Shown here: positions 5,758 to 30,409 of the stretch, piece after piece
Layout of the letters: the number at the start of each line of letters is the position of its first letter
Position numbering within the stretch: position 1 is the stretch's first letter
DNA from: Chloroflexota bacterium
GTDB taxonomy: Bacteria; Chloroflexota; Anaerolineae; UBA1429
Assembly (NCBI GenBank): GCA_019873625.1
Contig: JAIOAW010000006.1
Span: 13,252-77,251 of the forward strand
Direction of reading: 5' to 3'
Length of the DNA stretch: 64,000 nt
The notes under the pieces: generated by a model
What the model was told of the DNA's origin: nothing
The model's database searches: none
The model's input: the letters and a program-made list of their open reading frames with translations, nothing else
Made by a program: the position numbers and the translations under genes

Positions 5758-10385
<4,628 letters not shown>

Positions 10386-10589
10386 TCGAAAGGGCCTCCT
10401 TTCGGGTTCTCGTTCCATTCTACCCCGTTCGCGCACGTGGGGCAATTGCTATGGGCCGCGCCCTCGCGCCTGCCTCGCACGCGGGCCGGGAGGGGCACGC
10501 CGAGGTTGCGAGGGGAAGTCTATCGGCATAGAATAGGCCCGCCTGATAGCGTATCCATCACCCATCCTTAGCCAAAGCGAGGTGCCATT

Positions 10590-13064
10590 ATGGGGCAAGA
10601 TTTGCGACTCAAGCCGGAGCAATTGCGCCGCAGGTGCGATCCATCCGTCTTTTCGTTCACGTCCACGGCTGAACTCCCGCCCCTGAACCGCGTGTTAGGC
10701 CAATCTCGCGCCGTCCGCTCCATTGATTTCGGCATTGATATGCCCAACTATGGCTACAACATCTTTGCGGTGGGCTATGCCGGCTCAGGGCGCACCACCG
10801 CCGTGCGGCAATTCCTCGACCAGCGCGCCCCCAAGCGCCCTGCGCCGCCCGAGTGGTGCTATGTTTACAACTTTGAGGATCCTCGCCGCCCCAAGGCTAT
10901 CAGCCTGCCGCCGGGGAGGGCCTCCATCCTGCGGGAGCAGATGGCCGCCCTCATCCAGCGCCTGCAGCAGGAGATCCCCCGCGCCTTTGAGGGGCAACCC
11001 TTCGAACAGCGCCGCCGTGAACTCCTGATGAGCCTTCAACAAAAACAGCAGGCCCTGTTCGAAAATCTCGAGCGCTATCTGAACGAACGGGGGTTTGCCC
11101 TCATCCGCTCGCAGATGGGCCTGGGTATCGCCCCTATGCTCAACGGGGAGGTCCTTTCGCCAGAGGCCTATCAGAAGCTCGACCCCGAAATCAAGCGCCG
11201 TTTTGAGGCCTACCGCCCCGAACTCCAAGAGGAGTTCGACAAGGTGATGCGCCAGGTGCGCGAGTTGGACCGCCAAGGCCGCAACGCCATCGAGACGTTG
11301 ACGAACGAGTTGGCCGGCTTCGTGGTGGATACCCTGATGGCCGAACTCCGCGAGCAGTTTCAAGATTGCCCAAACGTCCAGCCCTATCTGGATAGCGTGC
11401 GGCGCGATATTGTCAGCAACGTCCAGCAATTCCTCCCCAGCGCCGACCAAAGCGCCGCCTTACCCTTTATGGGGGCGCTGGAGCGGGGAAGGTGGTTCTC
11501 TCGCTATGCGGTGAACGTCTTGGCCGAAACGCGAGACCGCACCTGTGCGCCCGTGGTCATCGAAGATAACCCCACTTACCACAATCTCATCGGGCGCATC
11601 GAGCATCGCGCCGAATTCGGCACGATGGTTACCGATTTCACGCAGATCCGCGCGGGGGCCTTGCACCGGGCGAACGGTGGCTACCTTGTGGTGGAGGCCA
11701 AGAACCTGCTCGTCAACCCCTTCGCTTGGGATGCCCTCAAGCGCGCCCTCCACAACCGCGAGATCAAGATCGAGGAGATGTCTCAATATTACGGCCTGGT
11801 GGCCACGTCCACCCTCGAGCCGGAACCCATCCCCCTCGATGTGAAGGTGATCCTCATCGGAGATCATCGCCTCTACCAACTCCTCTACCTCTTTGATGAG
11901 GATTTTCGCGAACTGTTCAAGGTGAAGGCCGAGTTTGGCCTGACGATGCCGCGCGATGAGGAGAGCCTGCGCGATTACGCCATCTTTGTGGGAGACCTGT
12001 GCCGCCGCGAGGGCCTGCTGCCCTTTGATGCGGGCGCCGTGGCGCGCCTGGTGGAGGAATCCTCTCGCCTGGTGGATGACCAAGAGAAACTGACCACGCA
12101 CTTTGCCTCCGTGGCCGACCTCATCCGCGAGGCCTCTTTTTGGGCAGGCCGGGCGGGCCGAGGGGTGGTGACGGCGGAGGACGTCCGCCAAGCGGTGGAG
12201 GAGCGCACGGCCCGGCTGGATTTGGCCGTGGAACGCTATGTCGAATCGGTGTTGAAGGGCGTCATCCTCATTGATACAGAGGGGAGCGTCGTCGGCCAGG
12301 TGAACGGCCTTTCGGTGGTGCAATCGGGCGAGTTTGTCTTTGGGTTGCCCTCGCGCATCACGGCGCGCACCTATCTGGGGCGCGCGGCGGTGGTGAGCAT
12401 CGAGCGCGAGGTCAGAATGAGCGGCCCCATTCATGATAAGGGGCAACTCATCCTGGCGGGGTACTTGGCCAGCCGTTTCGCCCAAAAGCACCCCTTGACG
12501 ATGTCGGCCAGTTTGACGTTTGAGCAGTTGTATTCCGGCGTAGAGGGCGATAGCGCCTCATCTACGGAACTGTATGCGCTCCTCTCTAGCCTGGCCGATG
12601 TGCCCATCAAGCAGGGGTTGGCGGTTACGGGGTCTGTGAATCAACTCGGGCAGGTGCAGGCCATCGGCGGCGTGAACGATAAAATCGAGGGGTTCTTCCG
12701 CGTGTGCAAGGCGCGGGGGTTGACGGGCGAACAGGGGGTACTCATCCCGGCGGCGAACGTACGCCACTTGATGCTGCGCGATGAGATCATCGAGGCCGTG
12801 CGCCAGGGCCAGTTTCACATCTATGCGGTCAACACGGTAGAAGAGGGTATCGAGATCCTGACGGGCATACCCGCCGGCGAGCCGGATGAAAACGGCGATT
12901 ACCCGCCCGACACGGTATATGGCCGCGTGCAGGCCAAGTTGGATCGCTATGCGGAACTTATGCGCGCGGAGGGCGAGCGCGCCGCGGAGAGGCCCAAGCC
13001 CCCGGAGGAAGCGCCCACGCCTCCTCCAGCGCCGGGCGAACCCCCCGTGCCCCAACCGAAATAA
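10590..13064 (+). CDS. Lon-related ATP-dependent protease (AAA+ domain + Lon S16 C-terminal proteolytic domain)
   Basis: FAVGYAGSGRTTAV (P-loop) in the N-terminal half; C-terminal ...EGDSASSTELYALLSSLADVPIKQGLAVTGSVNQLGQVQAIGGVNDKIEGFF, typical Lon proteolytic domain with Ser-Lys dyad region. Confidence 0.8.
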   Translation: MGQDLRLKPEQLRRRCDPSVFSFTSTAELPPLNRVLGQSRAVRSIDFGIDMPNYGYNIFAVGYAGSGRTTAVRQFLDQRAPKRPAPPEWCYVYNFEDPRRPKAISLPPGRASILREQMAALIQRLQQEIPRAFEGQPFEQRRRELLMSLQQKQQALFENLERYLNERGFALIRSQMGLGIAPMLNGEVLSPEAYQKLDPEIKRRFEAYRPELQEEFDKVMRQVRELDRQGRNAIETLTNELAGFVVDTLMAELREQFQDCPNVQPYLDSVRRDIVSNVQQFLPSADQSAALPFMGALERGRWFSRYAVNVLAETRDRTCAPVVIEDNPTYHNLIGRIEHRAEFGTMVTDFTQIRAGALHRANGGYLVVEAKNLLVNPFAWDALKRALHNREIKIEEMSQYYGLVATSTLEPEPIPLDVKVILIGDHRLYQLLYLFDEDFRELFKVKAEFGLTMPRDEESLRDYAIFVGDLCRREGLLPFDAGAVARLVEESSRLVDDQEKLTTHFASVADLIREASFWAGRAGRGVVTAEDVRQAVEERTARLDLAVERYVESVLKGVILIDTEGSVVGQVNGLSVVQSGEFVFGLPSRITARTYLGRAAVVSIEREVRMSGPIHDKGQLILAGYLASRFAQKHPLTMSASLTFEQLYSGVEGDSASSTELYALLSSLADVPIKQGLAVTGSVNQLGQVQAIGGVNDKIEGFFRVCKARGLTGEQGVLIPAANVRHLMLRDEIIEAVRQGQFHIYAVNTVEEGIEILTGIPAGEPDENGDYPPDTVYGRVQAKLDRYAELMRAEGERAAERPKPPEEAPTPPPAPGEPPVPQPK

Positions 13065-13069
13065 GACGT

Positions 13070-13101
13070 GAGGGAGCGGTTTATCCGCTCCCTCGCTCTT
13101 T
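13070..13101 (+). terminator. Bidirectional terminator hairpin between the Lon-related gene and the selenoprotein candidate
   Basis: GAGGGAGCGG tttat CCGCTCCCTC (10-bp stem) followed by GCTCTTT; convergent genes on both sides. Confidence 0.5.
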
Positions 13102-13110
13102 AGGGGAATT

Positions 13111-13470
13111 TCAGCCCATCACCGGGCCTTGAAGGGCCTGCTGGGCCTCTAAGGCTTCACGCACGGCTTGGATGACGACAAAGAATTCGAGGCTGCCGGC
13201 GCTTTTGAACTCACCATTGACGAAAAGAAGCGGGTAAACACGGTAGCCCTCTGGGACTTTGGCAAGGAGGTCTTGAAACTGCTCTTTGACCTCGCTTTGG
13301 GCCGCATCATAATAGGCCCAGGTCACCTGGCCATCGTAATAGTGCTCGAGATAGGTGCCGATGATCTCTGCGGTCTCCGCCGAAGACCGCCGCGGCCCTC
13401 AACCCATGCGGCAGCCCACTTCGCCCGCGCTGTTGCCCAAGATAAGCACGTGGACGGTGCCCTTTGCCAT
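13111..13470 (-). CDS. Candidate selenoprotein: YuzD-like (DUF1462) thioredoxin-fold protein with in-frame TGA (Sec) at 13399..13401
   Basis: Track ORFs 13399..13590(-) and 13111..13326(-) are in the same frame, separated only by TGA. Read-through translation: MAKGTVHVLILGNSAGEVGCRMG-U-GPRRSSAETAEIIGTYLEHYYDGQVTWAYYDA...YPLLFVNGEFKSAGS.... The TGA replaces the second Cys of the CxxC-type motif of YuzD-like proteins; a hairpin lies 9 nt downstream of the TGA; AGGAGG lies 6 nt upstream of the ATG at 13470. Confidence 0.6.
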
Positions 13471-13506
13471 ACCGTTCCTCCTGATGGTTTGATACCCTCT
13501 ATGGGT

Positions 13507-13542
13507 ATATGATATCATATCCTTGTAAAGGCCTCGTGTCAA
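13507..13542 (-). promoter_or_regulatory. Near-consensus sigma70 promoter (-35 TTGACA, 17 nt, -10 TATGAT) with perfect 14-bp palindrome ATATGATATCATAT overlapping the -10
   Basis: Minus-strand read: TTGACAcgaggcctttacaaggaTATGATatcatat...AGGAGGaacggtATG; palindrome at 13507..13520. Confidence 0.5.
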
Positions 13543-13595
13543 AAAAAGGCGCGGCGAGGAAAATCCGAAAATTCCCGAAAATGGCCCCAAAAAGG

Positions 13596-13624
13596 TTGTC
13601 TTTTTGTGAAGGGTGTGATATAAT
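13596..13624 (+). promoter_or_regulatory. Sigma70-like promoter for the rhomboid gene (-35 TTGTCT, 17 nt, extended -10 TGaTATAAT)
   Basis: ttgtctttttgtgaagggtgtgatataat, 30 nt upstream of ATG 13654; the region 13471..13653 is AT-rich for this genome. Confidence 0.45.
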
Positions 13625-13653
13625 CCTATTTATGGTGTAAAGAGTGCGTAAAA

Positions 13654-14325
13654 ATGATCCCTATAGCCGATGCCAACCCACGCCGCCGTGTGCCGGCCGT
13701 TACGATCTTGCTCATCTTGGCGAACGTGGCCATCTTTCTTTACCAGGTAACCCTTTCGCCCACACGGCTGAACGCGCTCTTGGCCAATCTGGCTGTTATC
13801 CCCCTGCGCATCACGCAGTTCTGGGGGCCAAAAACAGCGCGGACCCTGCTTACGGCGATGTTTCTGCACGGCAGTTGGCTGCATCTCCTCAGCAATATGC
13901 TGTACCTTTGGGTTTTTGGAGACAACGTCGAGGATATCCTCTCTCCTTTCTTCTACCTTCTCTTTTACTTGGCGTCGGGCGTGGTGGGGTCTTTGGCACA
14001 GGTGGCCGTTTCGGCCTCTTCGTCGGTGCCCGTCATCGGCGCCAGCGGGGCCGTGGCGGGGATTCTGGGGGCCTATATCGTCCTCTTTCCGCGCCATCGG
14101 GTGCGCACGTTGGTCATTCTTTTCTATTTCTTGCGCGTTATGGATGTACCGGCTGCGATCGTCTTGGGGATGTGGTTCTTTTTGCAACTTTTCAACGGCT
14201 TGGCGGCTATCGCAAGGGTTTCCTCCGGGGGCGTGGCTTGGTTCGCCCATCTGGGAGGGTTCGCTTTGGGGATTTTGGTGGGCCTTCTGGCGCGCCCGCG
14301 GAGGCGGCCCGCTATGTATGGGTGA
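13654..14325 (+). CDS. Rhomboid-family intramembrane serine protease
   Basis: Motifs FLHGSWLHLLSNMLYLWVFG, GASGAVAGILGAY (GxSG catalytic Ser), FAHLGGF (catalytic His); 6 TM segments. Confidence 0.85.
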   Translation: MIPIADANPRRRVPAVTILLILANVAIFLYQVTLSPTRLNALLANLAVIPLRITQFWGPKTARTLLTAMFLHGSWLHLLSNMLYLWVFGDNVEDILSPFFYLLFYLASGVVGSLAQVAVSASSSVPVIGASGAVAGILGAYIVLFPRHRVRTLVILFYFLRVMDVPAAIVLGMWFFLQLFNGLAAIARVSSGGVAWFAHLGGFALGILVGLLARPRRRPAMYG

Positions 14326-14372
14326 GGCCAAAAGGCGATTCATCTAGGGCACGATGAAAGGGCAGGCGAGCG

Positions 14373-17087
14373 ATGGGCTTTAGAAGGATTGGGCGAAGAT
14401 TAGGAATCGGCCTTTTTGTAGGGATGCTTTTGATGATGATCTGCTTCCCGGTGGGGGCGGCCGCGCTGCAGGCGCCGTCGATCCGCTTTGCCGACGTCGG
14501 CACGGATGCGCAGCGAAGCGGCGTTTGGGCCATCGTCGAAAATGCGGGGCCAGCCCTTCTGCCCCAAGGCCTTGGGTGGCGGCTGTGGAGGATATTGCCC
14601 CAAGGCCAAAACCTTGCCTCCGAGGGGTCTTTGCCGGCCCTCGTGCCAGGGGAGACGAGCCGCCTGGAGGTGACGGGCCTGGCGCCCAGCATATACCGCT
14701 TTTACTTGATGCCGAAGGAAGAGTTCCTGCCGGAGGGGCTTTGGTCTGAGGAGATAATCCTTTCGCCAACCGTTACGCCAACGGCAGCCGCCGAGCCGAC
14801 GGCTACCGCGACGGTAACGCCTACGGCGGCTGCACCTACGCCAACGGTCGCAGAGGCGACTCCTTACCCGGTAGCCCTTTCGCCCGCGGTTACGCCCACG
14901 CCGCGTCTCCTCGCCCTGCCGCTTATCCTTCAGCCGGCGATGGGGGCCTCTCCCACGCCGACCCCCTTGCCGACGGTAGCCCCTATGGTGCCCACGCCCT
15001 CGCGCATCCTTCCGCCGCTGGCCTTCCTCGCGCCGGTGGAGCGAGAGGCTCTCAGCGAGAACGCTATACTGACGCTGGGCGACCTCTCGGGCGGCAAGGC
15101 GCTCACCTTGCAGGGGTATGTGCCTTCGGCTGCGGTGTATTACCTCTTGGAAGAGGGCGGGAGCGCCTCCGCCGGGCGGCTCACCATCCGTTTTCGCCAT
15201 TCGGCCACCCTTCGGCCCGATTCGACGCTGACCGTCAAGGTGAACCGCATCCCTGTGGCGAGCGTGCGCCTCACCCCAGAGAACGCCGAGGGCGGTGAGA
15301 TTGCCGTCGAAATCCCCCCTGCGGCCTTGACGGGCGATACGATTGAAATCGCCTTCGCCGGATTTTTGGGCACGACGGACGATATTTGCGCCCTTTTGGA
15401 TGATGAATCGGCCTGGGTAACCATCTTGCCCGATTCGGAATTCGCCTTCACGGTGAACCGTCCGCCCTTCCAGTCGAACTTGGGCCGGCTGCCTTACCCC
15501 TTTGTGCGCGAGCGCACGCCGCAGGAGCAGGCCGTGCTCGTGGTCTTGGCGGATGATCTCGACGCCGCCGATTGGGCCGCGGCCTTGCCCTTGGCCGGTT
15601 ACCTGGGCCGCGCCTCGGCCTGGAGAGACCTGCCCATCTATGCCGTGCGCGAGGGAGAGTTCAACGCGCGCCTCGCGGTGCAGTATGACCTCATCTTTGT
15701 GGGGCGAAGCGCCTCGTTGGGCCTTCTGAACCGCACGGGGGTCGCGCTCCCCTTAGGGCGCGCGGCCGATGGGGCTATCCTTGGGCCAGATGGAACCCCC
15801 CTTGCCCCGGATACGGGCGTCATTATGGAGGCCGCCTCGCCGTGGGATGCCCACCGTGGCTTGCTCGTCATCACGGGCGGTACGGCGGAGGCCCTGCGCC
15901 GGGCGGTGCACGCTCTGATTCAGCCGGCCTTCCCCAGCGAGGCCCGTGGTGAATACGCCCTCATCTTGCAGGGGGCGGCCGAGGAACCGACCGTCATCGC
16001 CTCGGGCCGGCTGACCCATACGCTGGAGAGCCTGGGGTATGATGACCTTGTGATGCAGGGGGTGGGCCGGCAAACGCGCGATGTAACCCTGATGCTCCCC
16101 TCGACGCTCAAGGTAGAATCGGCTCGGGTGAAGGTGCGCTTTAGCCATTCGCCCTTCTTGTGGCGAGGGGTTTCGTACCTCAACGTGTATGTGAACGATG
16201 TCCCCGTCAAGGGCGTTTACCTCGATGAACGCAACGAAGATCGCGGCGAGGTGACGTTCGATATCCGGGGCGATCAGTTCGTGCCGGGCCGGAACGTCCT
16301 CCGCTTCCTCTTTGACCTGCGCCTGCAAGATTGGGATTGCCGAGATACCGAGTGGGCGCGCGCCTGGGGCACCATCCACCGCGATACACTGCTCACGTTG
16401 GACCTCGCGCCGGGCGATGGCGCGTGGGATTTGGCCGGCTTCCCAGGGCCGTATACGGGCGGGGCCTTGTGGGTCTTGCCGGATCGGCCGTCTCCTGAGA
16501 CGATGGCCGGGACTTTTCTCCTCGTGGCGCAGTTAGGCCGCGAACTGGGCGAGGACGTCTTGCGCCACACGTTCGGTGTGGCCAGCCACGTGCCGCGCGC
16601 CGAACTCGAAAAGCAGAGTATCATCGCCGTGGGCCTGCCGGCCGATAACCCCATCGTCGCGGAGGTGGCAGCGCAGTTGCCCTTCCCGTTGGGGGGCGAC
16701 TCTTCCGGGGGCATCCAGGGTGCCAAACCGGTGGGCGCCGTGGAGCAGATCGCCTCGCCGTGGAATGCCCGCTACCGGCTGCTCGTCATCAGCGGGGTTG
16801 ATGACGAATTGGTGGGGCGTGCGGCCTATCTCCTGGCCGATGCTCGCCAGCGACCGCGCCTGCGCGGCGAGGCCGCGCTCGTGGATGCCGATGGCGTCGT
16901 AACGACCATCGCCCGCCAAACGCGGCCAACGCCCGTCCCCGGCCGGGCCGTCGGCACGCGCGCCACGCCTAATTGGGTGACGATCGCCGCCCTGGGGGCC
17001 TTGGCTGTGCTCGTGATCGTCATCGGCGTGGCCGTGGTGCGCCGGTTGGCCCAACGCGGCGCAGGGCGCAAGGGGCCAGCGGCCTAA
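14373..17087 (+). CDS. Large periplasmic protein with signal peptide, Pro/Thr/Ala linker, two internal repeats and a C-terminal TM anchor; BcsB-like partner of the downstream GT2 synthase
   Basis: N-terminal signal/TM (GIGLFVGMLLMMICFPVGAAA), PT-rich low-complexity 14780..14990, duplicated ~100-aa segments (…LLVITGGTAEALRRAVHAL… / …LLVISGVDDELVGRAAYLL…), C-terminal TM LGALAVLVIVIGVAVV; function inferred from architecture and synteny only. Confidence 0.45.
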   Translation: MGFRRIGRRLGIGLFVGMLLMMICFPVGAAALQAPSIRFADVGTDAQRSGVWAIVENAGPALLPQGLGWRLWRILPQGQNLASEGSLPALVPGETSRLEVTGLAPSIYRFYLMPKEEFLPEGLWSEEIILSPTVTPTAAAEPTATATVTPTAAAPTPTVAEATPYPVALSPAVTPTPRLLALPLILQPAMGASPTPTPLPTVAPMVPTPSRILPPLAFLAPVEREALSENAILTLGDLSGGKALTLQGYVPSAAVYYLLEEGGSASAGRLTIRFRHSATLRPDSTLTVKVNRIPVASVRLTPENAEGGEIAVEIPPAALTGDTIEIAFAGFLGTTDDICALLDDESAWVTILPDSEFAFTVNRPPFQSNLGRLPYPFVRERTPQEQAVLVVLADDLDAADWAAALPLAGYLGRASAWRDLPIYAVREGEFNARLAVQYDLIFVGRSASLGLLNRTGVALPLGRAADGAILGPDGTPLAPDTGVIMEAASPWDAHRGLLVITGGTAEALRRAVHALIQPAFPSEARGEYALILQGAAEEPTVIASGRLTHTLESLGYDDLVMQGVGRQTRDVTLMLPSTLKVESARVKVRFSHSPFLWRGVSYLNVYVNDVPVKGVYLDERNEDRGEVTFDIRGDQFVPGRNVLRFLFDLRLQDWDCRDTEWARAWGTIHRDTLLTLDLAPGDGAWDLAGFPGPYTGGALWVLPDRPSPETMAGTFLLVAQLGRELGEDVLRHTFGVASHVPRAELEKQSIIAVGLPADNPIVAEVAAQLPFPLGGDSSGGIQGAKPVGAVEQIASPWNARYRLLVISGVDDELVGRAAYLLADARQRPRLRGEAALVDADGVVTTIARQTRPTPVPGRAVGTRATPNWVTIAALGALAVLVIVIGVAVVRRLAQRGAGRKGPAA

Positions 17088-17120
17088 TGGCGGAGGTCGG
17101 GCCTGAAAGACGAGGGAGAT

Positions 17121-19046
17121 ATGGCTGAGGAGGTCTCTTTCTCGGCGGCAGAGCGCACCAAGCCTCGTCCACGCTTTGGCGAGATCTTGCTTGCGGAGGG
17201 GTTGATTACCGAGGCGCAACTGCAAGAGGCGCTCGCCATCCAAGCGCGCACGGGGGCGCGGTTCGGCGCGGTGCTCGTGAGCCTGGGGCACATCAACAAA
17301 CTGGCCGTTGCCCAGGTACTGGCCAGGCAACTGGGGTTGCCCTTTCGGAATCTACTCCTCAACCCGCCCGAGGCGGAGGCCGTGCGCCTCATCCCGGAGG
17401 CTTTGGCGCGCGCGGCAGGCGCGGTGCCCACGGCCGTGGAGGCCGATGGCTCGGTGACGGTGGGGTTTGTGGACCCGCTCGATGAGGCCGCCCAGCGCAA
17501 GGTGGCGGAGGCTTTAAGGCGCCCCATCCGTCGAGAGGTGATCAGCGAGTACGACCTGCAATGGATCCTCGATCGGGTTTACCGCGAGGAGTACATCCAG
17601 CGGAGCGTGATGGAACTCTACTATCGGCGCCCCGATGAATCCGCCTACGTCACGTTCACCACGCCCCAGTTGGTCATCCTCTTGGCGTTGGGCCTTGCCG
17701 TGCTCGTCGGGGCCATCCTCAGGCCAACTTGGACGTTGGTTATCGTCAACATCCTCATCACGGCCATCTATTTCATCATCACCTCCTATCGGGCCTATCT
17801 GATGTATAAAGGCCTGCGCCTCAAGCCGCAGGAGGCCCTTTACCCCACCGAGCCGGTCGAGATTCCCGACCGGGACCTGCCTACCTACACCATCCTCGTG
17901 CCGCTCTTTCGGGAGCGCGAGGTTTTGCCCACCCTCCTCCAGGCCATCGCCAATTTGGATTACCCGCCCACCAAACTCGATGTGAAACTCCTCTTTGAGG
18001 AATCGGACCCCGAGACGCTCGCCGCTGCGAAGGCTTTGCGCCCGCCGGGGTACTTTCAGTTCGTGGTGGTGCCGAACGTCCCCCCGCAGACCAAGCCCAA
18101 GGCCTGCAACTATGGCCTCATCAGCGCGGTGGGGCAATATTGCGTCATTTATGATGCCGAGGATATCCCCGAGCGCGACCAACTGCGCAAGGCGGTGGCC
18201 GCCTTCCGCCAGGTGGACCCGGATGTGGTCTGCCTGCAAGCGCGGCTGAATTTCTATAACCGCGACCAGAATATCCTCACCCGTTGGTTCACGTCGGAAT
18301 ATTCGATGTGGTTCGACGTCTTTTTGCCGGGGCTGAACGCCACCCGGGCGCCCATCCCCTTGGGGGGCACCTCGAACCACTTTATCACCGAGCGCCTGCG
18401 CGAGTTGGGCGCGTGGGACCCCTTTAACGTGACCGAGGATGCGGACTTGGGCGTGCGCTTGCACCGCGCGGGCTACCGCACGGCTATGCTCGGCTCCACC
18501 ACCTATGAGCAGGCCGCCTCCACGACGTATGAGGAGGCCAACTCCCAACTGCGGAATTGGGTTCGCCAACGCTCGCGGTGGGTCAAGGGGTATATGCAGA
18601 CCTGGCTCGTGCATATGCGCTACCCCTGGCGCCTACTCAAAGACGTGGGGGTCAAGAATTTCTTGAGTTTTCACGTCACCGTGGGGGGCACCCCGTTCAC
18701 CCTGCTCGTGAACCCGTGGTATTGGCTCGTGTTCCTCCTCTGGATCCTCACGCGCTGGGACGTGATCTATGTCGCCTTCCCAGGGGTGCTTTATTACCTC
18801 TCGCTCATCTCGCTCGTCGTGGGGAATGCCTATTTCGTCTATTTCAATGCCGTGGCCGCCTATGCGCGGGGGTATCACAACCTCGTCTTATATGCCTTCC
18901 TTTCGCCGTTTTATTGGGTGTTGATGAGCATTGGGGCCTGGAAAGGCCTGTACCAGTTGCTTGTCAAACCCTACTATTGGGAAAAGACCATCCACGGCCT
19001 GGCCAAGACGGATGACCTCCCCCCTACAGCCCGGGTGCGGAGGTAG
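17121..19046 (+). CDS. Processive family-2 glycosyltransferase (cellulose-synthase-like) with N-terminal MshEN (T2SSE_N) c-di-GMP-binding domain
   Basis: N-terminus RFGEILLAEGLITEAQLQEALAIQ matches the 24-residue MshEN motif RLGxxLLxxGLLxxxxLxxxLxxQ; GT2 motifs DAED (DxD), TEDADLG (TED), QRSRW (QxxRW); N- and C-terminal TM helices. Confidence 0.85.
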   Translation: MAEEVSFSAAERTKPRPRFGEILLAEGLITEAQLQEALAIQARTGARFGAVLVSLGHINKLAVAQVLARQLGLPFRNLLLNPPEAEAVRLIPEALARAAGAVPTAVEADGSVTVGFVDPLDEAAQRKVAEALRRPIRREVISEYDLQWILDRVYREEYIQRSVMELYYRRPDESAYVTFTTPQLVILLALGLAVLVGAILRPTWTLVIVNILITAIYFIITSYRAYLMYKGLRLKPQEALYPTEPVEIPDRDLPTYTILVPLFREREVLPTLLQAIANLDYPPTKLDVKLLFEESDPETLAAAKALRPPGYFQFVVVPNVPPQTKPKACNYGLISAVGQYCVIYDAEDIPERDQLRKAVAAFRQVDPDVVCLQARLNFYNRDQNILTRWFTSEYSMWFDVFLPGLNATRAPIPLGGTSNHFITERLRELGAWDPFNVTEDADLGVRLHRAGYRTAMLGSTTYEQAASTTYEEANSQLRNWVRQRSRWVKGYMQTWLVHMRYPWRLLKDVGVKNFLSFHVTVGGTPFTLLVNPWYWLVFLLWILTRWDVIYVAFPGVLYYLSLISLVVGNAYFVYFNAVAAYARGYHNLVLYAFLSPFYWVLMSIGAWKGLYQLLVKPYYWEKTIHGLAKTDDLPPTARVRR

Positions 19047-19052
19047 CGTGAG

Positions 19053-20651
19053 ATGACTCGTCGGCATTGGGATTGGGAAGCCACCGTCGTTTACGGCGTT
19101 TGTCTCGCGCTCAACCTGATGGGGGTGTGGTATGTGGTCTTTCACATCCGCCTCTTTCAGATTGACGCGATAGCCCGCACCCTGAACGCCTGGATGGTCT
19201 TTTTCAGTACCGAACCGAAACTCTCGAATATGGGGTTCGTCTGGCTGCCTCTGCCCACGCTTTTGCAATTGCCCCTCATCCTCATCCCCCCTCTGCGAAC
19301 CTATGGTTTGGCGGGGAATGTGTTGACGGCCCTTGTGGGCGCGGGTGCGGCCACCATCCTTTACGCCCTGATGCGCCATTATGGCTTCCCCCGCTGGCAA
19401 AGGATCCTTTGGCTTGGGGTTTGGGTGCTGAACCCGATGGTCTGGCTCTATTCGGCCAACGCGATGAGCGAGATCATCGCCATCTTTTGCCTCTTATTGG
19501 GTTGGTACCATTGGGATCGTTGGGTGAGCACCGAAGACACCTTCAACCTGGTGGGGATGAGCCTGGCTATGGCGATGTGGTTCCTCACCCGCTACGAGAG
19601 CCTGCTTTTTGCGGGGGCGCTGCTCGTGCTCATCGCCCTGCACCTATGGCGCAAGGGGGCGCCGTGGGGGCAAGTTTGGTCTTCGGCGCTCCTGTATGGG
19701 GTGCCCGTGGCGGGCACGGTCGCCCTCTGGCTCGTGGTGAACTGGGCCATTATGGGCCACCCGCTCTATTTCGCCATGGGGTCATATAGCCCCGGCACCG
19801 AGGCGCCTCTCCTCGTGGCCGGGGACCCCGCGCTTGTGCCCCTGCGTTCCAATGTGCTCGCCGTAATTCGGACCATTATGGTGCGCTCGTGGAAACTTTA
19901 TCCCGGCGCGGGTTTGGGGGCGGCCTTTCTCATCATCGTGGCCGTCTGGCGGCGGTCTTGGGCGTTGGCGGGCTATCTCCTCTTCCCCTTGGCCTTTTTG
20001 GCGAGCGCCGTGTACAACGATCTGTTTGGCTTCCCCTTGCTCTCGCTGCGCTATTTCATCTTGGTCATCCCCCTAGGGGCGCTTTTGTGGGTGGAGGGCG
20101 TGCGCGGCCTCAAACCTCGGAATACCTGGGCGGCGCTTTTAGGGGCGGCCGTTTTGGCGGGGTCCATCCCTTTCACGGCGCAGGCTATGCTGGAATCTCA
20201 AAAGGGGATTGAGGAAAACTATGCCATAAATGCCCTCTTGGGCAGGCCCGTGCCCGACTTGTGGGCGAACGACCGTTTGATGGCCCGATATATCCTCGAA
20301 CACGCCGGCTACCGCGAGGTGCTCGCCGACCCACGTGAGGGGTCGAACGTCATCTTTTTCGCCGGCCGGCTGGATCGCTTCGTCCTCCCTGCCGATAGCG
20401 ATTTCAAGCGCATCCTCCAGGCCCCATATGGCCAGGTGCGCTACATCCTCGCCATCGAAAAAAACCCCGAACTCCTGCTCGACCAGATCGCCGAGACCTA
20501 CCCCGAACTATCCTATCAGGATGACGTCGGCTGGGCTAGGCTCGTCTTACGGGCCTATCCCTTCCGCCTGTATGAGGTCTTGGGCGACCCTTACCGCCTG
20601 CCGGAGACCCCGCCCAGCCAACTGCTCAAGCCTTCGGCGCCTGGGGGGTGA
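19053..20651 (+). CDS. Polytopic membrane protein (GT-C-like/DUF2079-like), third gene of the synthase operon
   Basis: ~10 predicted TM helices followed by a ~170-aa soluble C-terminal domain; GGAGG upstream of the ATG, 7 nt after the GT2 stop. Confidence 0.5.
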   Translation: MTRRHWDWEATVVYGVCLALNLMGVWYVVFHIRLFQIDAIARTLNAWMVFFSTEPKLSNMGFVWLPLPTLLQLPLILIPPLRTYGLAGNVLTALVGAGAATILYALMRHYGFPRWQRILWLGVWVLNPMVWLYSANAMSEIIAIFCLLLGWYHWDRWVSTEDTFNLVGMSLAMAMWFLTRYESLLFAGALLVLIALHLWRKGAPWGQVWSSALLYGVPVAGTVALWLVVNWAIMGHPLYFAMGSYSPGTEAPLLVAGDPALVPLRSNVLAVIRTIMVRSWKLYPGAGLGAAFLIIVAVWRRSWALAGYLLFPLAFLASAVYNDLFGFPLLSLRYFILVIPLGALLWVEGVRGLKPRNTWAALLGAAVLAGSIPFTAQAMLESQKGIEENYAINALLGRPVPDLWANDRLMARYILEHAGYREVLADPREGSNVIFFAGRLDRFVLPADSDFKRILQAPYGQVRYILAIEKNPELLLDQIAETYPELSYQDDVGWARLVLRAYPFRLYEVLGDPYRLPETPPSQLLKPSAPGG

Positions 20652-21416
20652 GGGCAGGCTCTTGGGCGGGGCTGTAAAAAGGCGTCTCTAAGCCATGCCG
20701 CTCGAGGAGGGCGGCATCCTGCAAGAGGTGGGAGGTGGGGCCATCGGCCACCAGGCGCCCGCCGTCGAGGATGAGGGTGCGGGGGCACAATTCCCACACC
20801 AGGCGCATATCGTGCGTAGCCACGAGCATCGTCCGCGGCAGGCCCCTAAGGAGCGCGATGAGTTCCCGCCGAGCGCGGGGGTCAAGGCCGGCCGTCGGTT
20901 CATCCAAGGCCAAAATGGGCGGTTCCATAGCGAGGATTGTCGCGAGGGCCGCCCGTTTGCGTTCGCCCAAACTCAAATGGTGCGGCATCCGCGCCTCAAA
21001 TCCTTCCAACCCTACGAAAGCCAGGGCCTCGTACACCCGGCGCGCGACCTCCTCGGCGTTCAGGCCCGCGTATAAAGGGCCGTAGGCCACATCGTCGAAC
21101 ACGGTGAGCGAAAAGAGTTGATCATCCGGGTTTTGGAAGAGGAGGCCCACCTGGGCGCGGATGGCGCGCAGCGTAGCCCGCGAAACCTCTTGCCCCGCGA
21201 TGAGGATGCGGCCTCTCCTCCCCTCGGTGAGGATGCCATTCAGCAAAAGGAGGAGGGTGGATTTCCCCGCGCCGTTCGGCCCCACGAGGGCGACTTTTTC
21301 CCCCGCCTCGACGGTAAAATGGATGCCCTCCAGGGCCTGGCGGCCATCGGGGTAGGCAAAGGATAGGTTTTCGACCACGATATAGGGTTGAGCCAAGGGG
21401 TGCTCCTCTAAAAAAG
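20626..21416 (-). CDS. cbiO: ECF-type Ni/Co transporter ATPase (CbiO/EcfA)
   Basis: GPNGAGKSTLLLLL (Walker A), LSLGERKRAALA (signature), ILALDEPTAGLD (Walker B); start set at TTG 21416, preceded by GAGGAG. Confidence 0.8.
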
Positions 21417-29242: not shown

Positions 29243-30409
29243 ATGGTGCCGGCTGGCCTTTACGTGCATATCCCCTTTTGCCTGGCCAAGTGCGCGTATT
29301 GCGATTTCGTCTCCTTTGCGGGCCTCGAACCCCTTTATGAGGCCTATGTCGAGGCGCTCTTGCGAGAGGCGGCCCTCGTCGCGCCTCGTTGGGCAGAGTT
29401 TTCCTTCGACACCCTTTTTATCGGGGGCGGCACGCCCACCGTGCTCCCTGTGGCCTGGTTAGAGGCGGTTATCACCGCCTGCCGCGAGGTGCTTCACCTG
29501 GCGGAAGGGGCCGAAATCACCGTGGAAGCCAACCCGGGCACGGTGGATTTCCCCAGCCTCCGCGCCCTACGCGAGGCCGGCGTCACCCGGCTGAGCCTTG
29601 GCATCCAGAGCCTGCGCGATGCCGACCTGGCCCTCTTGGGGCGCCTGCATAACTGCCAAACGGCGCGCGAGGCCTATACCCTCGCGCGCCAGGCGGGGTT
29701 TGAGAACATCAACCTCGATTTCATCTTCGGCTTGCCCGGCCAAACCGTGCCCCAATGGCAGGGGGTGCTCGAAGAGGCCTTGAGCCTCCGGCCGGAACAC
29801 CTTTCCCTGTACGCTTTGACCTTGGAAGAGGGCACCCCTCTTGAGGCGCGCATCCGCCGGGGCGATCTCCCCGCGCCCGATGAGGAGGCCTCTGCCGCGA
29901 TGTACGAACTCGCCGAGGCCCTTTTGGGCAGGTCAGGCTACGCCCATTACGAAATCTCCAACTGGGCGCGGCGCACGCCTGCCGATCCGCCCTATGGCCC
30001 GCCGGCCTTGGCTTGCCGCCACAACCTCAAATATTGGCGGAACGAACCCTACTTGGGCCTAGGGGCCGCCGCCCACAGTTACGATGGCACGGCGCGCTAT
30101 GCGAACGTGAGCGACCCGGCGGCCTACATCGCGCGAATAGGCCAAGGCCAAGAGGCCGTCGCCGAACGAGAGGTGCTAACCCCTGCGCAGGCGATGGGCG
30201 AGACGATGATGCTGGGCCTGCGCCTCATCGAGGGGGTAGAGTATGCTGCCTTTGAGGCGCGCTTCGGCGTGCCGATGAGGGCCGTCTATGCCCGCGAGAT
30301 GGAGGAACTCATCCAAGAAGGCTTATTGGAGGCCGACGAGTGCGGCGTGCGCCTCACCCCGCGCGGGAGGCTCTTGGGGAACCGGGTGTTTGCGGCGTTT
30401 TTGCCCTAG
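29243..30409 (+). CDS. hemW: Radical SAM heme chaperone HemW (coproporphyrinogen III oxidase-like)
   Basis: YVHIPFCLAKCAYCDF (CxxxCxxC) and …FIGGGTP…. Confidence 0.85.
   Translation: MVPAGLYVHIPFCLAKCAYCDFVSFAGLEPLYEAYVEALLREAALVAPRWAEFSFDTLFIGGGTPTVLPVAWLEAVITACREVLHLAEGAEITVEANPGTVDFPSLRALREAGVTRLSLGIQSLRDADLALLGRLHNCQTAREAYTLARQAGFENINLDFIFGLPGQTVPQWQGVLEEALSLRPEHLSLYALTLEEGTPLEARIRRGDLPAPDEEASAAMYELAEALLGRSGYAHYEISNWARRTPADPPYGPPALACRHNLKYWRNEPYLGLGAAAHSYDGTARYANVSDPAAYIARIGQGQEAVAEREVLTPAQAMGETMMLGLRLIEGVEYAAFEARFGVPMRAVYAREMEELIQEGLLEADECGVRLTPRGRLLGNRVFAAFLP

What the first reader, a model, noticed from the sequence alone, without database searches (positions are those of the whole stretch)
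14373..20651. Exopolysaccharide synthase operon whose GT2 catalytic subunit carries an MshEN-type c-di-GMP receptor instead of a PilZ domain
Three co-directional genes with 33-nt and 7-nt spacers, possibly joined by the upstream rhomboid gene. (i) A ~900-aa secreted/periplasmic protein with signal peptide, PT linker, two internal repeats and a C-terminal TM anchor (BcsB-like architecture). (ii) A processive GT2 with DxD/TED/QxxRW motifs flanked by TM helices, whose N-terminal 150 aa match the MshEN/T2SSE_N domain, including an exact fit to the 24-residue c-di-GMP-binding motif RLGxxLLxxGLLxxxxLxxxLxxQ (RFGEILLAEGLITEAQLQEALAIQ). (iii) A 10-TM membrane protein with a soluble C-terminal domain. 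In canonical cellulose synthase BcsA, c-di-GMP is sensed by a C-terminal PilZ domain; here the sensor is MshEN at the N-terminus. The polymer identity is unknown.
Basis: partly seen in the sequence, partly recalled or inferred. Interest (0 to 1): 0.6.

Follow-up and report, generated by a model that had tools for sequence, protein, structure and literature searches.

The report
c-di-GMP-sensing Xag-type polysaccharide synthase operon
This is a real operon for a membrane polysaccharide synthase that should be switched on by the bacterial signal c-di-GMP through an N-terminal MshEN domain, but the gene family is widespread and already catalogued (the xag/sfz clusters), so it is a new member of a known kind.

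Summary
Window 14373-20651 carries three co-directional genes.

- **BcsB-family protein, 904 aa.** It matches PF03170 at 1.7e-56. It has a signal anchor, a PT linker, two internal repeats and a C-terminal TM helix.
- **Processive GT2 synthase, 641 aa.** Its first 157 residues are a complete MshEN c-di-GMP receptor domain. Both 24-residue motifs are present with a 5-residue spacer. There is no PilZ domain.
- **Membrane protein, 532 aa.** It is a GT-C-fold glycosyltransferase of the PMT/ArnT/STT3 kind.

- Wang et al. 2016 listed the architecture 'MshEN - Glyco_trans_2_3'.
- The synthase is 42% identical, end to end, to a Xanthomonas-type XagB.
- The order BcsB, then T2SSE_N-GT2, then a ~500-aa protein is the published bcsB-xagBC / sfz1-3 cluster.
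- MshEN activation of a GT2 by c-di-GMP has been shown for E. coli NfrB.

Across 81 genomic loci the GT-C gene is the constant partner (76 loci). BcsB is optional (35 loci).

It is not a BcsA orthologue, and the polymer is unknown. Linked ManC and small GT2 genes elsewhere hint at mannose.

Verdict: new member of a known kind, of modest interest.

The parts
13596..13624 (+). Sigma-70-like promoter candidate (TTGTCT-17-TATAAT with extended TG), 30 nt upstream of the rhomboid start. It is the likely start of a four-gene transcript.
   Evidence: All 5 promoter-like sites in 13000-21000 lie upstream of 13625, and none lies between the four genes. A terminator-like hairpin at 13070-13094 closes the preceding LonC-like gene. 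This is a consensus match only.
13654..14325 (+). Rhomboid-family intramembrane serine protease (223 aa). It is linked to the operon in this lineage only.
   Evidence: PF01694 1.1e-33. It is not a rhombosortase: TIGR03902 scores 31 bits against a cut-off of 84. It is present upstream in the 92%-identical relative L086 and absent from 80 other loci.
14373..17087 (+). BcsB-family extracytoplasmic partner (904 aa). Its parts are a signal anchor, an N-terminal extra region, a PT linker, two BcsB-type repeats and a C-terminal TM anchor.
   Evidence: PF03170 1.7e-56. Hydropathy gives anchors at aa 14-32 and 871-889. Internal repeat: 29% identity over 280 aa, E 7e-14. E. coli BcsB 6yg8, E 4e-4. The NCBIfam BcsB equivalogs score far below their cut-offs: 110 bits against 750.
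17121..19046 (+). XagB-type processive GT2 synthase (641 aa). Order of parts: MshEN, 2 TM helices, GT-A catalytic domain, about 3-4 TM/interface helices, and a C-terminal WEKTxHG tail. There is no PilZ domain.
   Evidence: The AF2 model has pLDDT 89 and pTM 0.89. Foldseek top hits are hyaluronan synthase and BcsA (4p00, 19% identity). It is 42% identical over aa 9-632 to the Xanthomonas-type xagB locus L090.
17160..17591 (+). MshEN c-di-GMP receptor domain (aa 14-157). The 53-residue binding site is at aa 18-70 (window 17172-17330).
   Evidence: NF053729 63.5 bits, cut-off 38; PF05157 8.5e-14. V. cholerae MshE 5htl: E 1.8e-15 by sequence; TM 0.81, rmsd 2.6 A, 34% identity by fold. It keeps 12 of 12 key motif positions.
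17880..18590 (+). GT2 catalytic domain (aa 254-490), with DAED 345-348, TED 438-440 (18432-18440) and QRSRW 483-487 (18567-18581).
   Evidence: PF13641 5.6e-23 and PF13632 3.7e-21. The motifs were located and are invariant in 68 homologues.
18495..18542 (+). Lineage-specific 8-residue tandem duplication, STTYEQAA|STTYEEAN, between TED and QxxRW.
   Evidence: The two 24-nt copies differ at 5 positions. The duplication is shared only with the 92%-identical P0002. The region has lower pLDDT (71-76) in the model.
19053..20651 (+). GT-C-fold membrane glycosyltransferase (532 aa), XagC/Sfz3-like. It has about 10-11 TM helices plus a C-terminal alpha/beta domain, and a conserved acidic residue (D38) in the first outer loop.
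   Evidence: AF2 model pLDDT 77.6, pTM 0.80. The Foldseek PDB top 33 hits are all GT-C enzymes: STT3, PglB, ArnT, DPY19, PMT, ALG12, AftB and Emb. 7 of 12 close homologues hit PF13231 PMT_2. NF047440 3.3e-14, below its cut-off. It is present in 76 of 81 loci. Position 38 is D or E in 47 of 59 aligned members.

Best explanation
The locus encodes a synthase-dependent extracellular polysaccharide machine of the Xag/Sfz type, gated by c-di-GMP.

**Shown by sequence and fold**
- The 641-aa protein is a membrane-embedded processive GT2 of the same structural class as BcsA, hyaluronan synthase and chitin synthase.
- It has a complete cytoplasmic MshEN domain at its N-terminus.
- The 904-aa protein is a BcsB-family protein. 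It faces outward and is held by a C-terminal TM helix.
- The 532-aa protein is a GT-C-fold glycosyltransferase.
- The three genes recur together in many phyla.

**Inferred**
1. c-di-GMP binds the two tandem 24-residue motifs (aa 18-70) and relieves auto-inhibition of the GT domain. This is demonstrated genetically and by binding assays for E. coli NfrB, where the MshEN domain is C-terminal.
2. The synthase polymerises a nucleotide sugar and threads the chain through its own TM channel.
3. The BcsB-like protein docks through its TM anchor and guides the emerging chain outside the membrane.
4. The GT-C enzyme uses a polyprenyl-phosphate sugar on the outer face to decorate or prime the polymer. 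That sugar is probably mannose, because ManC and small Ppm/GtrB-like GT2 genes sit in related loci.
5. No outer-membrane porin gene is present, which fits a Chloroflexota-type envelope.
6. The four genes from the rhomboid onward are probably one transcript.

The polymer is unknown, and nothing tested here marks it as cellulose.
For: - **Domain assignments.**
- **MshEN domain.** It aligns to the c-di-GMP-bound V. cholerae MshE crystal structure at E 1.8e-15, and by fold at TM 0.81. All 12 key motif positions are kept.
- **Synthase class.** D / DAED / TED / QRSRW are invariant in 68 homologues. The model matches HAS, BcsA and Chs1.
- **GT-C assignment.**
- **Synteny.** The GT-C gene is in 76 of 81 loci and the BcsB gene in 35 of 81, in Chloroflexota, Bacillota, Bacteroidota, Pseudomonadota, Thermotogota and others. 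The same module sits on a conjugative Geobacillus plasmid as ManC-BcsB-GT2-GT39.
- **Mannose hint.** A ManC gene is in 10 loci, a small PF00535 GT2 in 11 loci, and a GtrA gene in L085.
- **Kinship with XagB.** Identity to a Xanthomonas-type xagB is 42% over the full length.
- **Literature.**
  - Deleting xagA or xagB reduces the elevated biofilm of a Xanthomonas oryzae rpfG mutant (PMC3609779).
  - NfrB needs both its MshEN c-di-GMP site and its GT active site (PMC8669469 and PMC8669472).
  - The Chloroflexi genomes tabulated in PMC5013675 have many GGDEF proteins, no PilZ, and MshEN as the only known receptor.
- **Expression signals.** Spacers are tight, SD-like sequences precede each gene, and the single promoter-like cluster lies upstream of the rhomboid gene.
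Against: - Nothing here measures c-di-GMP binding, enzyme activity or transcription.
- Motif II has H57 where the consensus wants a hydrophobic residue.
- The MshEN domain is N-terminal here and C-terminal in NfrB. The allosteric route need not be the same.
- No diguanylate cyclase motif is found in the 64-kb window.
- BcsB is absent from 57% of related loci, including close Chloroflexota relatives (L083 and L088). It is therefore not essential to the synthase family.
- The window has no ManC, no small Ppm-like GT2 and no GtrA next to the operon. The donor for the GT-C enzyme is inferred only from other genomes.
- An 8-residue insertion sits near the active site. Its effect is unknown.
Confidence: 0.7

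Rival explanations
1. It is a true cellulose synthase (BcsA-BcsB) that has merely swapped its PilZ domain for MshEN. The product would be beta-1,4-glucan.
For: - The partner is a BcsB-family protein.
- BcsA is the best non-MshEN sequence match in the PDB: 7lby, E 8.8e-9.
- BcsA is among the top fold matches.
- There is a partial TIGR03030 CelA hit.
Against: - The CelA equivalog scores 67.6 bits against a cut-off of 699, and NF008558 scores 42 against 992.
- The FFCGS and FxVTxK motifs are absent. The sequence reads LGGTSNHF and WEKTIHG instead.
- Hyaluronan synthase matches the fold as well as BcsA does.
- The family travels with a GT-C enzyme, and in some phyla with ManC. The classical bcs operons as I know them do not.
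- BcsB homologues also accompany non-cellulose systems, for example the Achromobacter nfr cluster (PMC8669472).
Confidence: 0.12
2. The GT2 is not a polymer synthase. It would charge a polyprenyl phosphate with one sugar, as ArnC, GtrB and Ppm1 do. The GT-C partner would then transfer that sugar to a protein, lipid or wall polymer. c-di-GMP would control a surface glycosylation step, not an exopolysaccharide.
For: - The GT2 and GT-C genes pair almost universally: 76 of 81 loci by local HMM search and 75 of 80 by blastp clustering.
- This mirrors the known two-step GT2 plus GT-C glycosylation systems (established knowledge).
- The GT-C gene is the invariant partner and BcsB is not.
Against: - The TED and QxxRW motifs and a multi-helix TM bundle are present. 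The fold matches HAS, BcsA and Chs1, which are hallmarks of processive, translocating synthases.
- Separate small PF00535 GT2 genes occur in 11 loci and are better candidates for charging the lipid carrier.
- A BcsB partner in 35 loci has no role in this scheme.
Confidence: 0.1
3. The MshEN domain here is a structural or protein-docking module that no longer binds c-di-GMP, as in XpsE. The operon would then be regulated some other way.
For: - Some MshEN domains have lost binding (PMC5013675).
- Within this GT2 family, the Bacteroidota and Ignavibacteria members have degenerate motifs, keeping 5 of 12 key positions.
- No diguanylate cyclase motif is found in the window.
Against: - The window protein keeps 12 of 12 key positions. 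These include R18, G20, L23, L34, L38, Q41, R47, G49, L52, L67 and Q70.
- None of the substitutions listed as inactivating in XpsE is present.
- NF053729 scores 63.5 bits against a cut-off of 38.
Confidence: 0.08

Closest known systems
Xanthomonas xagABCD cluster (XagB = XCC0678) and the bcsB-xagBCD / sfz1-sfz4 clusters of stalk-forming Fe(II)-oxidisers
   Same: - The synthase has the same architecture: N-terminal MshEN/T2SSE_N, then TM helices, then a GT2 with TED and QxxRW.
- It is 42% identical over aa 9-632 to a Xanthomonas-type xagB locus.
- JGI names many homologues with 47-52% identity 'glycosyltransferase XagB'.
- The gene order matches bcsB-xagB-xagC and sfz1-sfz2-sfz3: BcsB-like, then synthase, then a ~500-aa membrane protein (PMC4643136 and PMC8250860).
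- The ORF after xagB in L090 hits the gene-3 family profile at E 6e-6.
   Different: - The window has no XagD/Sfz4-type hydrolase gene.
- It has no counterpart of the 344-aa XagA-position ORF.
- A rhomboid gene is present instead.
- The host is Chloroflexota-like, not a proteobacterium.
- Neither the Kato et al. 2015 passages read here nor Koeksoy et al. 2021 presents the N-terminal domain as a c-di-GMP receptor. Koeksoy et al. describe it as an EpsE-like T2SS domain. Sfz3 was left without a function.
E. coli NfrB (NfrBA-YbcH, N4 glycan receptor synthase)
   Same: It is a processive GT2 fused to an MshEN domain. c-di-GMP binding to MshEN is required for polysaccharide output (PMC8669469 and PMC8669472). 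It is the only experimentally characterised MshEN-GT2 that I found.
   Different: - The domain order is reversed. NfrB is GT2-TM-MshEN, and this protein is MshEN-TM-GT2.
- The NfrB equivalog NF008411 scores 42.9 bits against a cut-off of 1170, and only over the MshEN part.
[quoted passage not shown] It does not work with a GT-C enzyme.
Bacterial cellulose synthase BcsA-BcsB
   Same: - The catalytic subunit is a membrane-embedded processive GT2.
- The partner is a BcsB-family protein with two repeats and a C-terminal TM anchor.
- c-di-GMP is the expected activator.
   Different: - The sensor is N-terminal MshEN, not C-terminal PilZ.
- The synthase has about 6 TM helices where BcsA has 8.
- The FFCGS and FxVTxK motifs are absent.
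- All BcsA and BcsB equivalog models score far below their cut-offs.
- A GT-C partner is present.
GT-C glycosyltransferases that use polyprenyl-phosphate sugars (ArnT, PMT, PglB/STT3, AftB/Emb)
   Same: Gene 3 shares their fold. It has a conserved acidic residue in the first outer loop and marginal PMT_2 sequence similarity.
   Different: - The window protein itself has no significant Pfam hit.
- A profile of the family finds no PDB match by sequence.
- The family has at least 1019 representatives of 50%-identity clusters at E<=1e-30 and no Pfam model of its own.
- Donor and acceptor are unknown.

Membership tests
MshEN c-di-GMP receptor domain (PF05157 / NF053729) | Profile match above the curated cut-off | tested here: met
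   NF053729 scores 63.5 bits (cut-off 38) over aa 18-70. PF05157 scores 51.8 bits (cut-off 23.1) over aa 71-157.
MshEN c-di-GMP receptor domain (PF05157 / NF053729) | Two tandem 24-residue motifs, RLGxxLLxxGLLxxxxLxxxLxxQ, joined by 5 residues | tested here: met
   Motif I (aa 18-41) fits the strict pattern. The spacer is ARTGA. Motif II (aa 47-70) fits except for H57. 12 of 12 key positions are kept.
MshEN c-di-GMP receptor domain (PF05157 / NF053729) | Fold of MshE N-terminal domain | tested here: met
   Against 5htl (MshE with c-di-GMP): TM 0.81, rmsd 2.6 A, 34% identity. PilF GSPII domains give TM 0.73-0.75.
MshEN c-di-GMP receptor domain (PF05157 / NF053729) | Binds c-di-GMP | not testable with these tools
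   This needs ITC, DRaCALA or MST on the purified domain.
Processive membrane-embedded GT2 synthases (BcsA/HAS/CHS/PgaC/NfrB class) | D, DxD-type, TED and QxxRW motifs | tested here: met
   D296, DAED 345-348, TED 438-440 and QRSRW 483-487 are present. All are invariant in 68 homologues.
Processive membrane-embedded GT2 synthases (BcsA/HAS/CHS/PgaC/NfrB class) | GT-A domain flanked by TM helices that form a channel; fold similarity to solved synthases | tested here: met
   TM helices lie at about aa 181-233 and 511-615. Foldseek hits: HAS 7sp7 at 2e-12, BcsA 4p00 at 1e-11, Chs1 at 5e-7.
Cellulose synthase catalytic subunit BcsA | Score at or above the equivalog cut-off (TIGR03030, NF008558) | tested here: not met
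   TIGR03030 scores 67.6 bits against 699.1. NF008558 scores 42.1 against 992.
Cellulose synthase catalytic subunit BcsA | C-terminal PilZ domain | tested here: not met
   There is no PilZ Pfam hit at E<=0.1. The protein ends 26 residues after the last TM helix. No DxSxxG motif is present.
Cellulose synthase catalytic subunit BcsA | FFCGS acceptor motif and FxVTxK gating loop | tested here: not met
   Neither pattern is present. The sequence has LGGTSNHF (aa 414-421) and WEKTIHG (aa 620-626). Which positions these correspond to in BcsA is my inference.
BcsB family (PF03170) | Pfam match above the cut-off | tested here: met
   192.3 bits against a cut-off of 21, E 1.7e-56, in 3 stretches.
BcsB family (PF03170) | Secreted, two tandem repeats, C-terminal TM anchor | tested here: met
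   Hydropathy gives anchors at aa 14-32 and 871-889. The internal repeat scores E 7e-14.
BcsB family (PF03170) | Orthology to the cellulose BcsB (NCBIfam equivalogs) | tested here: not met
   The best score is 110 bits against a cut-off of 750. The PDB BcsB match is only E 4e-4.
NfrB | GT2 at the N-terminus and MshEN at the C-terminus; equivalog score | tested here: not met
   The domain order is reversed. NF008411 scores 42.9 bits against 1170, over the MshEN region only.
Xag/Sfz-type cluster | XagB-type synthase (N-terminal MshEN/T2SSE_N plus GT2), full-length homology | tested here: met
   It is 42% identical over aa 9-632, E 2.8e-151, to L090. The N-terminal peptide of L090 is 97% identical to the published XCC0678 fragment.
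Xag/Sfz-type cluster | XagC/Sfz3-type membrane protein downstream | tested here: inconclusive
   The truncated ORF after xagB in L090 hits the gene-3 family profile at E 6e-6 over profile positions 95-226. Sfz3 matches in position and length only. No full-length XagC sequence was available.
Xag/Sfz-type cluster | XagD/Sfz4 glycoside hydrolase and XagA | tested here: not met
   The window has no such gene next to the operon. The downstream genes are a convergent ECF cobalt/nickel-type transporter.
GT-C glycosyltransferase superfamily | GT-C fold | tested here: met
   The top 33 Foldseek PDB hits are all GT-C enzymes, with E down to 4e-7. The model has pLDDT 77.6.
GT-C glycosyltransferase superfamily | Conserved acidic catalytic residue in the first extracytoplasmic loop | tested here: met
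   D38 is invariant in the 12 close homologues. Position 38 is D or E in 47 of 59 aligned family members.
GT-C glycosyltransferase superfamily | Uses a polyprenyl-phosphate-linked sugar donor | not testable with these tools
   The only evidence is indirect. Small PF00535 GT2, GtrA and ManC genes lie in related loci.

The most novel reading that the evidence does not exclude
The invariant core of this widespread family would be the pair of an MshEN-GT2 synthase and a dedicated GT-C transferase, not synthase plus BcsB. That would make it a c-di-GMP-gated hybrid pathway. A synthase-dependent polymer would be obligatorily primed, branched or anchored outside the membrane by a lipid-carrier-dependent GT-C enzyme, probably with mannose. 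I know of no biochemically described exopolysaccharide system with this mode. Chloroflexota lack PilZ, so in that phylum this would be a main route from c-di-GMP to matrix production.
Probability: 0.35. Interest if true: 0.55.

Novelty: new member of a known kind. Interest (0 to 1): 0.3.

Why it matters
- **For this genome.** The analysis gives a firm annotation: a c-di-GMP-responsive exopolysaccharide operon in a Chloroflexota-like organism. [quoted passage not shown]
- **Linking separate literatures.** The comparison connects three sets of papers that do not cite the link.
  - The xag biofilm genes of Xanthomonas.
  - The sfz/sfb stalk genes of iron oxidisers, where the N-terminal domain was read as a secretion-ATPase piece.
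  - The MshEN receptor work.
- **A new lead.** The unannotated third gene (XagC/Sfz3-like) is a GT-C glycosyltransferase and is the constant partner of the synthase. This gives experimenters a concrete handle on what the unknown polymer is and how it is modified.
- **Limits.** None of this overturns current understanding. The fusion itself has been known since 2016.

Tried and rejected
- **Cellulose synthase orthology.** Rejected on equivalog scores and missing motifs.
- **Rhomboid gene as a conserved part of the module.** Rejected. There is no rhomboid hit in 80 other loci, only in the 92%-identical relative. The rhombosortase model scores below its cut-off.
- **Apparent GT2-GT-C fusion ORF in L011 (9397-13515).** This is an artefact of my ORF caller in high-GC DNA. 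The GT2 match is in another reading frame, by arithmetic on the coordinates.
- **c-di-GMP riboswitch or other RNA element upstream.** Rfam at gathering thresholds finds nothing in the whole window, and there are no tRNAs.
- **Diguanylate cyclase nearby.** There is no GG[DE]EF motif in any ORF of at least 200 aa. The EAL pattern was too loose to be informative.
- **Sequence searches for gene 3.** Pfam gives no hit for the window protein. The profile against PDB sequences gives 0 hits. The word-indexed homologue search gives only 12 hits. Only fold comparison and the exhaustive HMMER search were informative.
- **Retrieving full-length Xanthomonas XagB.** I searched with the peptide printed in the Wang et al. 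supplement. Only fragments came back. The contig L090 had to stand in.
- **First local iterated HMM run.** It timed out on MAFFT and was redone with faster settings. The first gene-3 profile picked up some ORFs overlapping the GT2 gene, so a cleaner profile was rebuilt.
- **Cluster look-up for source names.** It gave no annotation.

Full report
**1. What is in the sequence**

Four co-directional ORFs lie on the + strand:
- 13654-14325, 223 aa
- 14373-17087, 904 aa
- 17121-19046, 641 aa
- 19053-20651, 532 aa

The spacers are 47, 33 and 6 nt. SD-like purine runs precede each of the last three starts. All five promoter-like sites in 13000-21000 lie upstream of 13625. The best is TTGTCT-17-TATAAT at 13596-13624, just before the rhomboid gene. 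A hairpin terminator at 13070-13094 follows the preceding LonC-like gene. Downstream, a convergent ABC/CbiQ/PDGLE transporter operon overlaps the end of the last gene. One four-gene transcript is plausible but not shown.

**2. The three proteins of the finding**

*Gene 1, BcsB family.* It matches PF03170 at 1.7e-56. It has an N-terminal hydrophobic anchor (aa 14-32), a PT-rich linker and a C-terminal TM helix at aa 871-889. Its two halves are 29% identical over 280 aa, E 7e-14. It is a distant family member. NCBIfam BcsB equivalogs reach 110 bits against cut-offs of at least 750. E. coli BcsB in the PDB matches at only E 4e-4.

*Gene 2, the synthase.* The profile hits are:
- NF053729 'c-di-GMP_motif', aa 18-70, 63.5 bits (cut-off 38)
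- PF05157 MshEN, aa 71-157
- GT2 models, aa 254-541

The N-terminus aligns residue by residue with V. cholerae MshE, whose structure was solved with c-di-GMP (5htl, E 1.8e-15), and with the Thermus PilF c-di-GMP-binding domains. Motif I fits the strict 24-residue pattern. A 5-residue spacer and motif II follow, with one deviation at H57. All twelve key positions that I scored are retained.

The catalytic part has D296, DAED 345-348, TED 438-440 and QRSRW 483-487. All are invariant in 68 homologues.

The AlphaFold model is confident (pLDDT 89, pTM 0.89). Its best PDB fold matches are hyaluronan synthases, BcsA (19-20% identity) and chitin synthase. The N-terminal domain matches MshE at TM 0.81.

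There is no PilZ domain, no FFCGS motif and no FxVTxK motif. The protein ends in an invariant WEKTxHG tail. I suspect, without proof, that this tail is the counterpart of the WGTR/FxVTxK gating loops.

*Gene 3, a GT-C enzyme.* It has no Pfam hit of its own. However, 7 of 12 close homologues touch PF13231 PMT_2. Its model (pLDDT 77.6, pTM 0.80) gives 33 consecutive top Foldseek hits that are all GT-C glycosyltransferases: STT3, PglB, AglB, ArnT, DPY19, PMT, ALG12, AftB and Emb. D38, in the first outer loop, is invariant among the close homologues. Position 38 is acidic in 47 of 59 aligned family members. This is where GT-C enzymes carry their catalytic acid, by established knowledge. The family has at least 1019 representatives of 50%-identity clusters at E<=1e-30.

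**3. Relatives and synteny**

The synthase family is very large. The homologue search listed 120 full-length hits, all with MshEN plus GT2 Pfam domains. Many are named 'glycosyltransferase XagB' by JGI. A scan of one genome per species found at least 599 loci. They span Chloroflexota, Actinomycetota, Bacillota, Bacteroidota, Pseudomonadota, Thermotogota, Synergistota, Cyanobacteria and others. The closest named relatives are Chloroflexota MAGs at 56-59% identity.

In the 81 loci held, locally iterated profiles gave these counts:

| Partner gene | Loci with it | Typical position |
|---|---|---|
| Gene-3 family (GT-C) | 76 of 81 | Usually directly downstream, same strand |
| BcsB family | 35 of 81 | Varies, see below |

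An independent blastp clustering gave 75 and 31 loci out of 80.

BcsB is upstream in the window, Bacteroidota, Pseudomonadota and Thermotogota. It is downstream in Clostridia, in Paenibacillus-type loci and in some Chloroflexia. It was not detected in most Actinomycetota loci (Nocardioides, Solirubrobacterales, Gaiellales and relatives), nor in two close Chloroflexota relatives. The GT-C gene is therefore the core partner, and BcsB is a frequent accessory.

The rhomboid gene accompanies the module only in the window and its 92%-identical relative.

Other recurrent neighbours:
- A ManC-type GDP-mannose pyrophosphorylase in 10 loci.
- A small PF00535 GT2 in 11 loci.
- A GtrA gene in L085.
- On the conjugative Geobacillus plasmid pEF60063-1, the annotated row 'sugar phosphate nucleotidyltransferase - BcsB - glycosyltransferase - GT39 family protein'.

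**4. What is already known**

- Wang et al. 2016 (PMC5013675) defined MshEN as a c-di-GMP receptor. Their Supplementary Table 4 lists both 'Glyco_trans_2_3 - MshEN' (NfrB) and 'MshEN - Glyco_trans_2_3' (Rsph17029_0522). Their supplementary motif alignment for Xanthomonas campestris and the organism table both list XCC0678.
- A contig whose product is 97% identical to that published XCC0678 peptide carries a gene 42% identical to the window synthase over aa 9-632.
- In Xanthomonas oryzae pv. oryzicola, deleting xagA or xagB reduces the elevated biofilm of an rpfG mutant. The xag genes are up-regulated when that HD-GYP phosphodiesterase is deleted (PMC3609779).
- Kato et al. 2015 and Koeksoy et al. 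2021 described bcsB-xagB-xagC-xagD and sfz1-sfz4 in stalk-forming iron oxidisers. Sfz1 has two BcsB domains with a signal peptide and a TM anchor. Sfz2 is 'EpsE-like T2SS domain + GT2'. Sfz3 is about 500 aa with no assigned function. This is the same arrangement as the window operon. Koeksoy et al. did not read the N-terminal domain as a c-di-GMP receptor.
- For NfrB, two 2021 studies showed that c-di-GMP binds MshEN and that both the binding site and the GT active site are needed.
- In the library searched, I found no paper that tests an N-terminal MshEN-GT2 biochemically, and none that assigns XagC/Sfz3 to the GT-C superfamily. RefSeq already labels the Geobacillus homologue 'GT39 family'.

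**5. Mechanism**

*Shown here:* the domain identities, the folds, the conserved motifs and the conserved gene linkage.

*Inferred:*
- c-di-GMP binding to aa 18-70 activates the synthase, by analogy with NfrB and, functionally, with BcsA-PilZ.
- The chain passes through the synthase's own TM channel.
- The BcsB-like protein, held by its C-terminal helix, receives the chain outside.
- The GT-C enzyme modifies or primes the polymer with a polyprenyl-phosphate sugar. The ManC, small-GT2 and GtrA neighbours in other genomes, and the PMT_2 similarity, point to mannose.
- The absence of an outer-membrane porin gene fits a Chloroflexota-type envelope.
- The Chloroflexi genomes tabulated by Wang et al. 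have many GGDEF proteins, no PilZ and only MshEN as a receptor. This gives a simple reason why this synthase type, and not a PilZ-bearing one, is found here.

**6. Rivals**

- *True cellulose synthase.* Rejected as a membership claim on equivalog scores and motifs. The polymer itself remains untested.
- *A monosaccharide-lipid GT2 feeding the GT-C enzyme.* Unlikely, given TED, QxxRW and the synthase fold.
- *A non-binding MshEN domain.* Unlikely here. It is true of the Bacteroidota and Ignavibacteria branch, which keeps only 5 of 12 key positions and carries a histidine kinase gene instead.

**7. Verdict**

This is a new member of a known, widespread but biochemically uncharacterised family. 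Interest is modest, at 0.3. The most interesting open point is the obligatory coupling of the synthase to a GT-C enzyme.

Noticed in passing
window 18495-18542 (synthase aa 459-474): There is a 24-nt tandem duplication giving STTYEQAA|STTYEEAN, between the TED and QxxRW motifs. The copies differ at 5 nt. It is shared only with the 92%-identical relative, so it is a real lineage-specific insertion and not an assembly artefact. It falls in a lower-confidence loop of the model. Its effect on catalysis is unknown.
   Followed up: partly
L046, L054, L059, L062, L064-L066, L068, L074, L075 (GT2 gene at about 10001-11850 in most): The Bacteroidota and Ignavibacteria members of the same synthase family keep the MshEN fold region but have lost the RxG and other key c-di-GMP positions, keeping 5-6 of 12. 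Most of them carry a HisKA/HATPase histidine kinase gene just upstream of the BcsB gene. This looks like a regulatory rewiring in phyla that, as far as I know, have little c-di-GMP signalling.
   Followed up: partly
L021, L028, L029, L033, L034, L038, L048, L052, L053, L077; L082:4630-6012: A ManC-type mannose-1-phosphate guanylyltransferase/isomerase gene sits in the module in Bacillota, Synergistota and one alphaproteobacterium, and on the conjugative Geobacillus plasmid pEF60063-1. A small PF00535 GT2 is often present with it. This is a lead to a mannose-containing product.
   Followed up: partly
window 30406-32217 (-) and 32283-34214 (-): Two further large membrane proteins have marginal PMT_2 (GT-C) matches. 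They are adjacent to each other in the lowest-GC stretch of the window (0.54-0.61, against about 0.64 elsewhere). They may have been acquired horizontally, and they are unrelated in position to the operon.
   Followed up: no
L090:856-1890 and L089:4262-5296: In the Xanthomonas-type xag contigs, the 344-aa ORF in the XagA position has no Pfam hit and is not a BcsB relative. The proteobacterial xag cluster therefore uses a different, uncharacterised first gene.
   Followed up: no
window 10590-13064 (+) and 13115-13470 (-): A LonC-type Lon-like protease (LonC_helical, AAA_32, Lon_C domains) lies directly upstream, followed by a bidirectional-looking terminator hairpin. A short ORF on the opposite strand lies between it and the rhomboid promoter region. 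Neither is linked to the module in other genomes.
   Followed up: no
L069:14392-15219 and 10 other loci (e.g. L021:9101-9988, L054:9136-9963, L077:14348-15175): A roughly 270-aa ORF family with no Pfam hit recurs next to the module in 11 loci of Pseudomonadota, Bacteroidota, Synergistota and Aquificota. By position it may be the XagD/Sfz4-like component. It is absent from the window.
   Followed up: no
window 14373-15020 (BcsB-like aa 1-215): The BcsB-like protein has an extra N-terminal region of about 90 residues and a PT-rich linker of about 85 residues ahead of the BcsB repeats. No profile matches this part.
   Followed up: no
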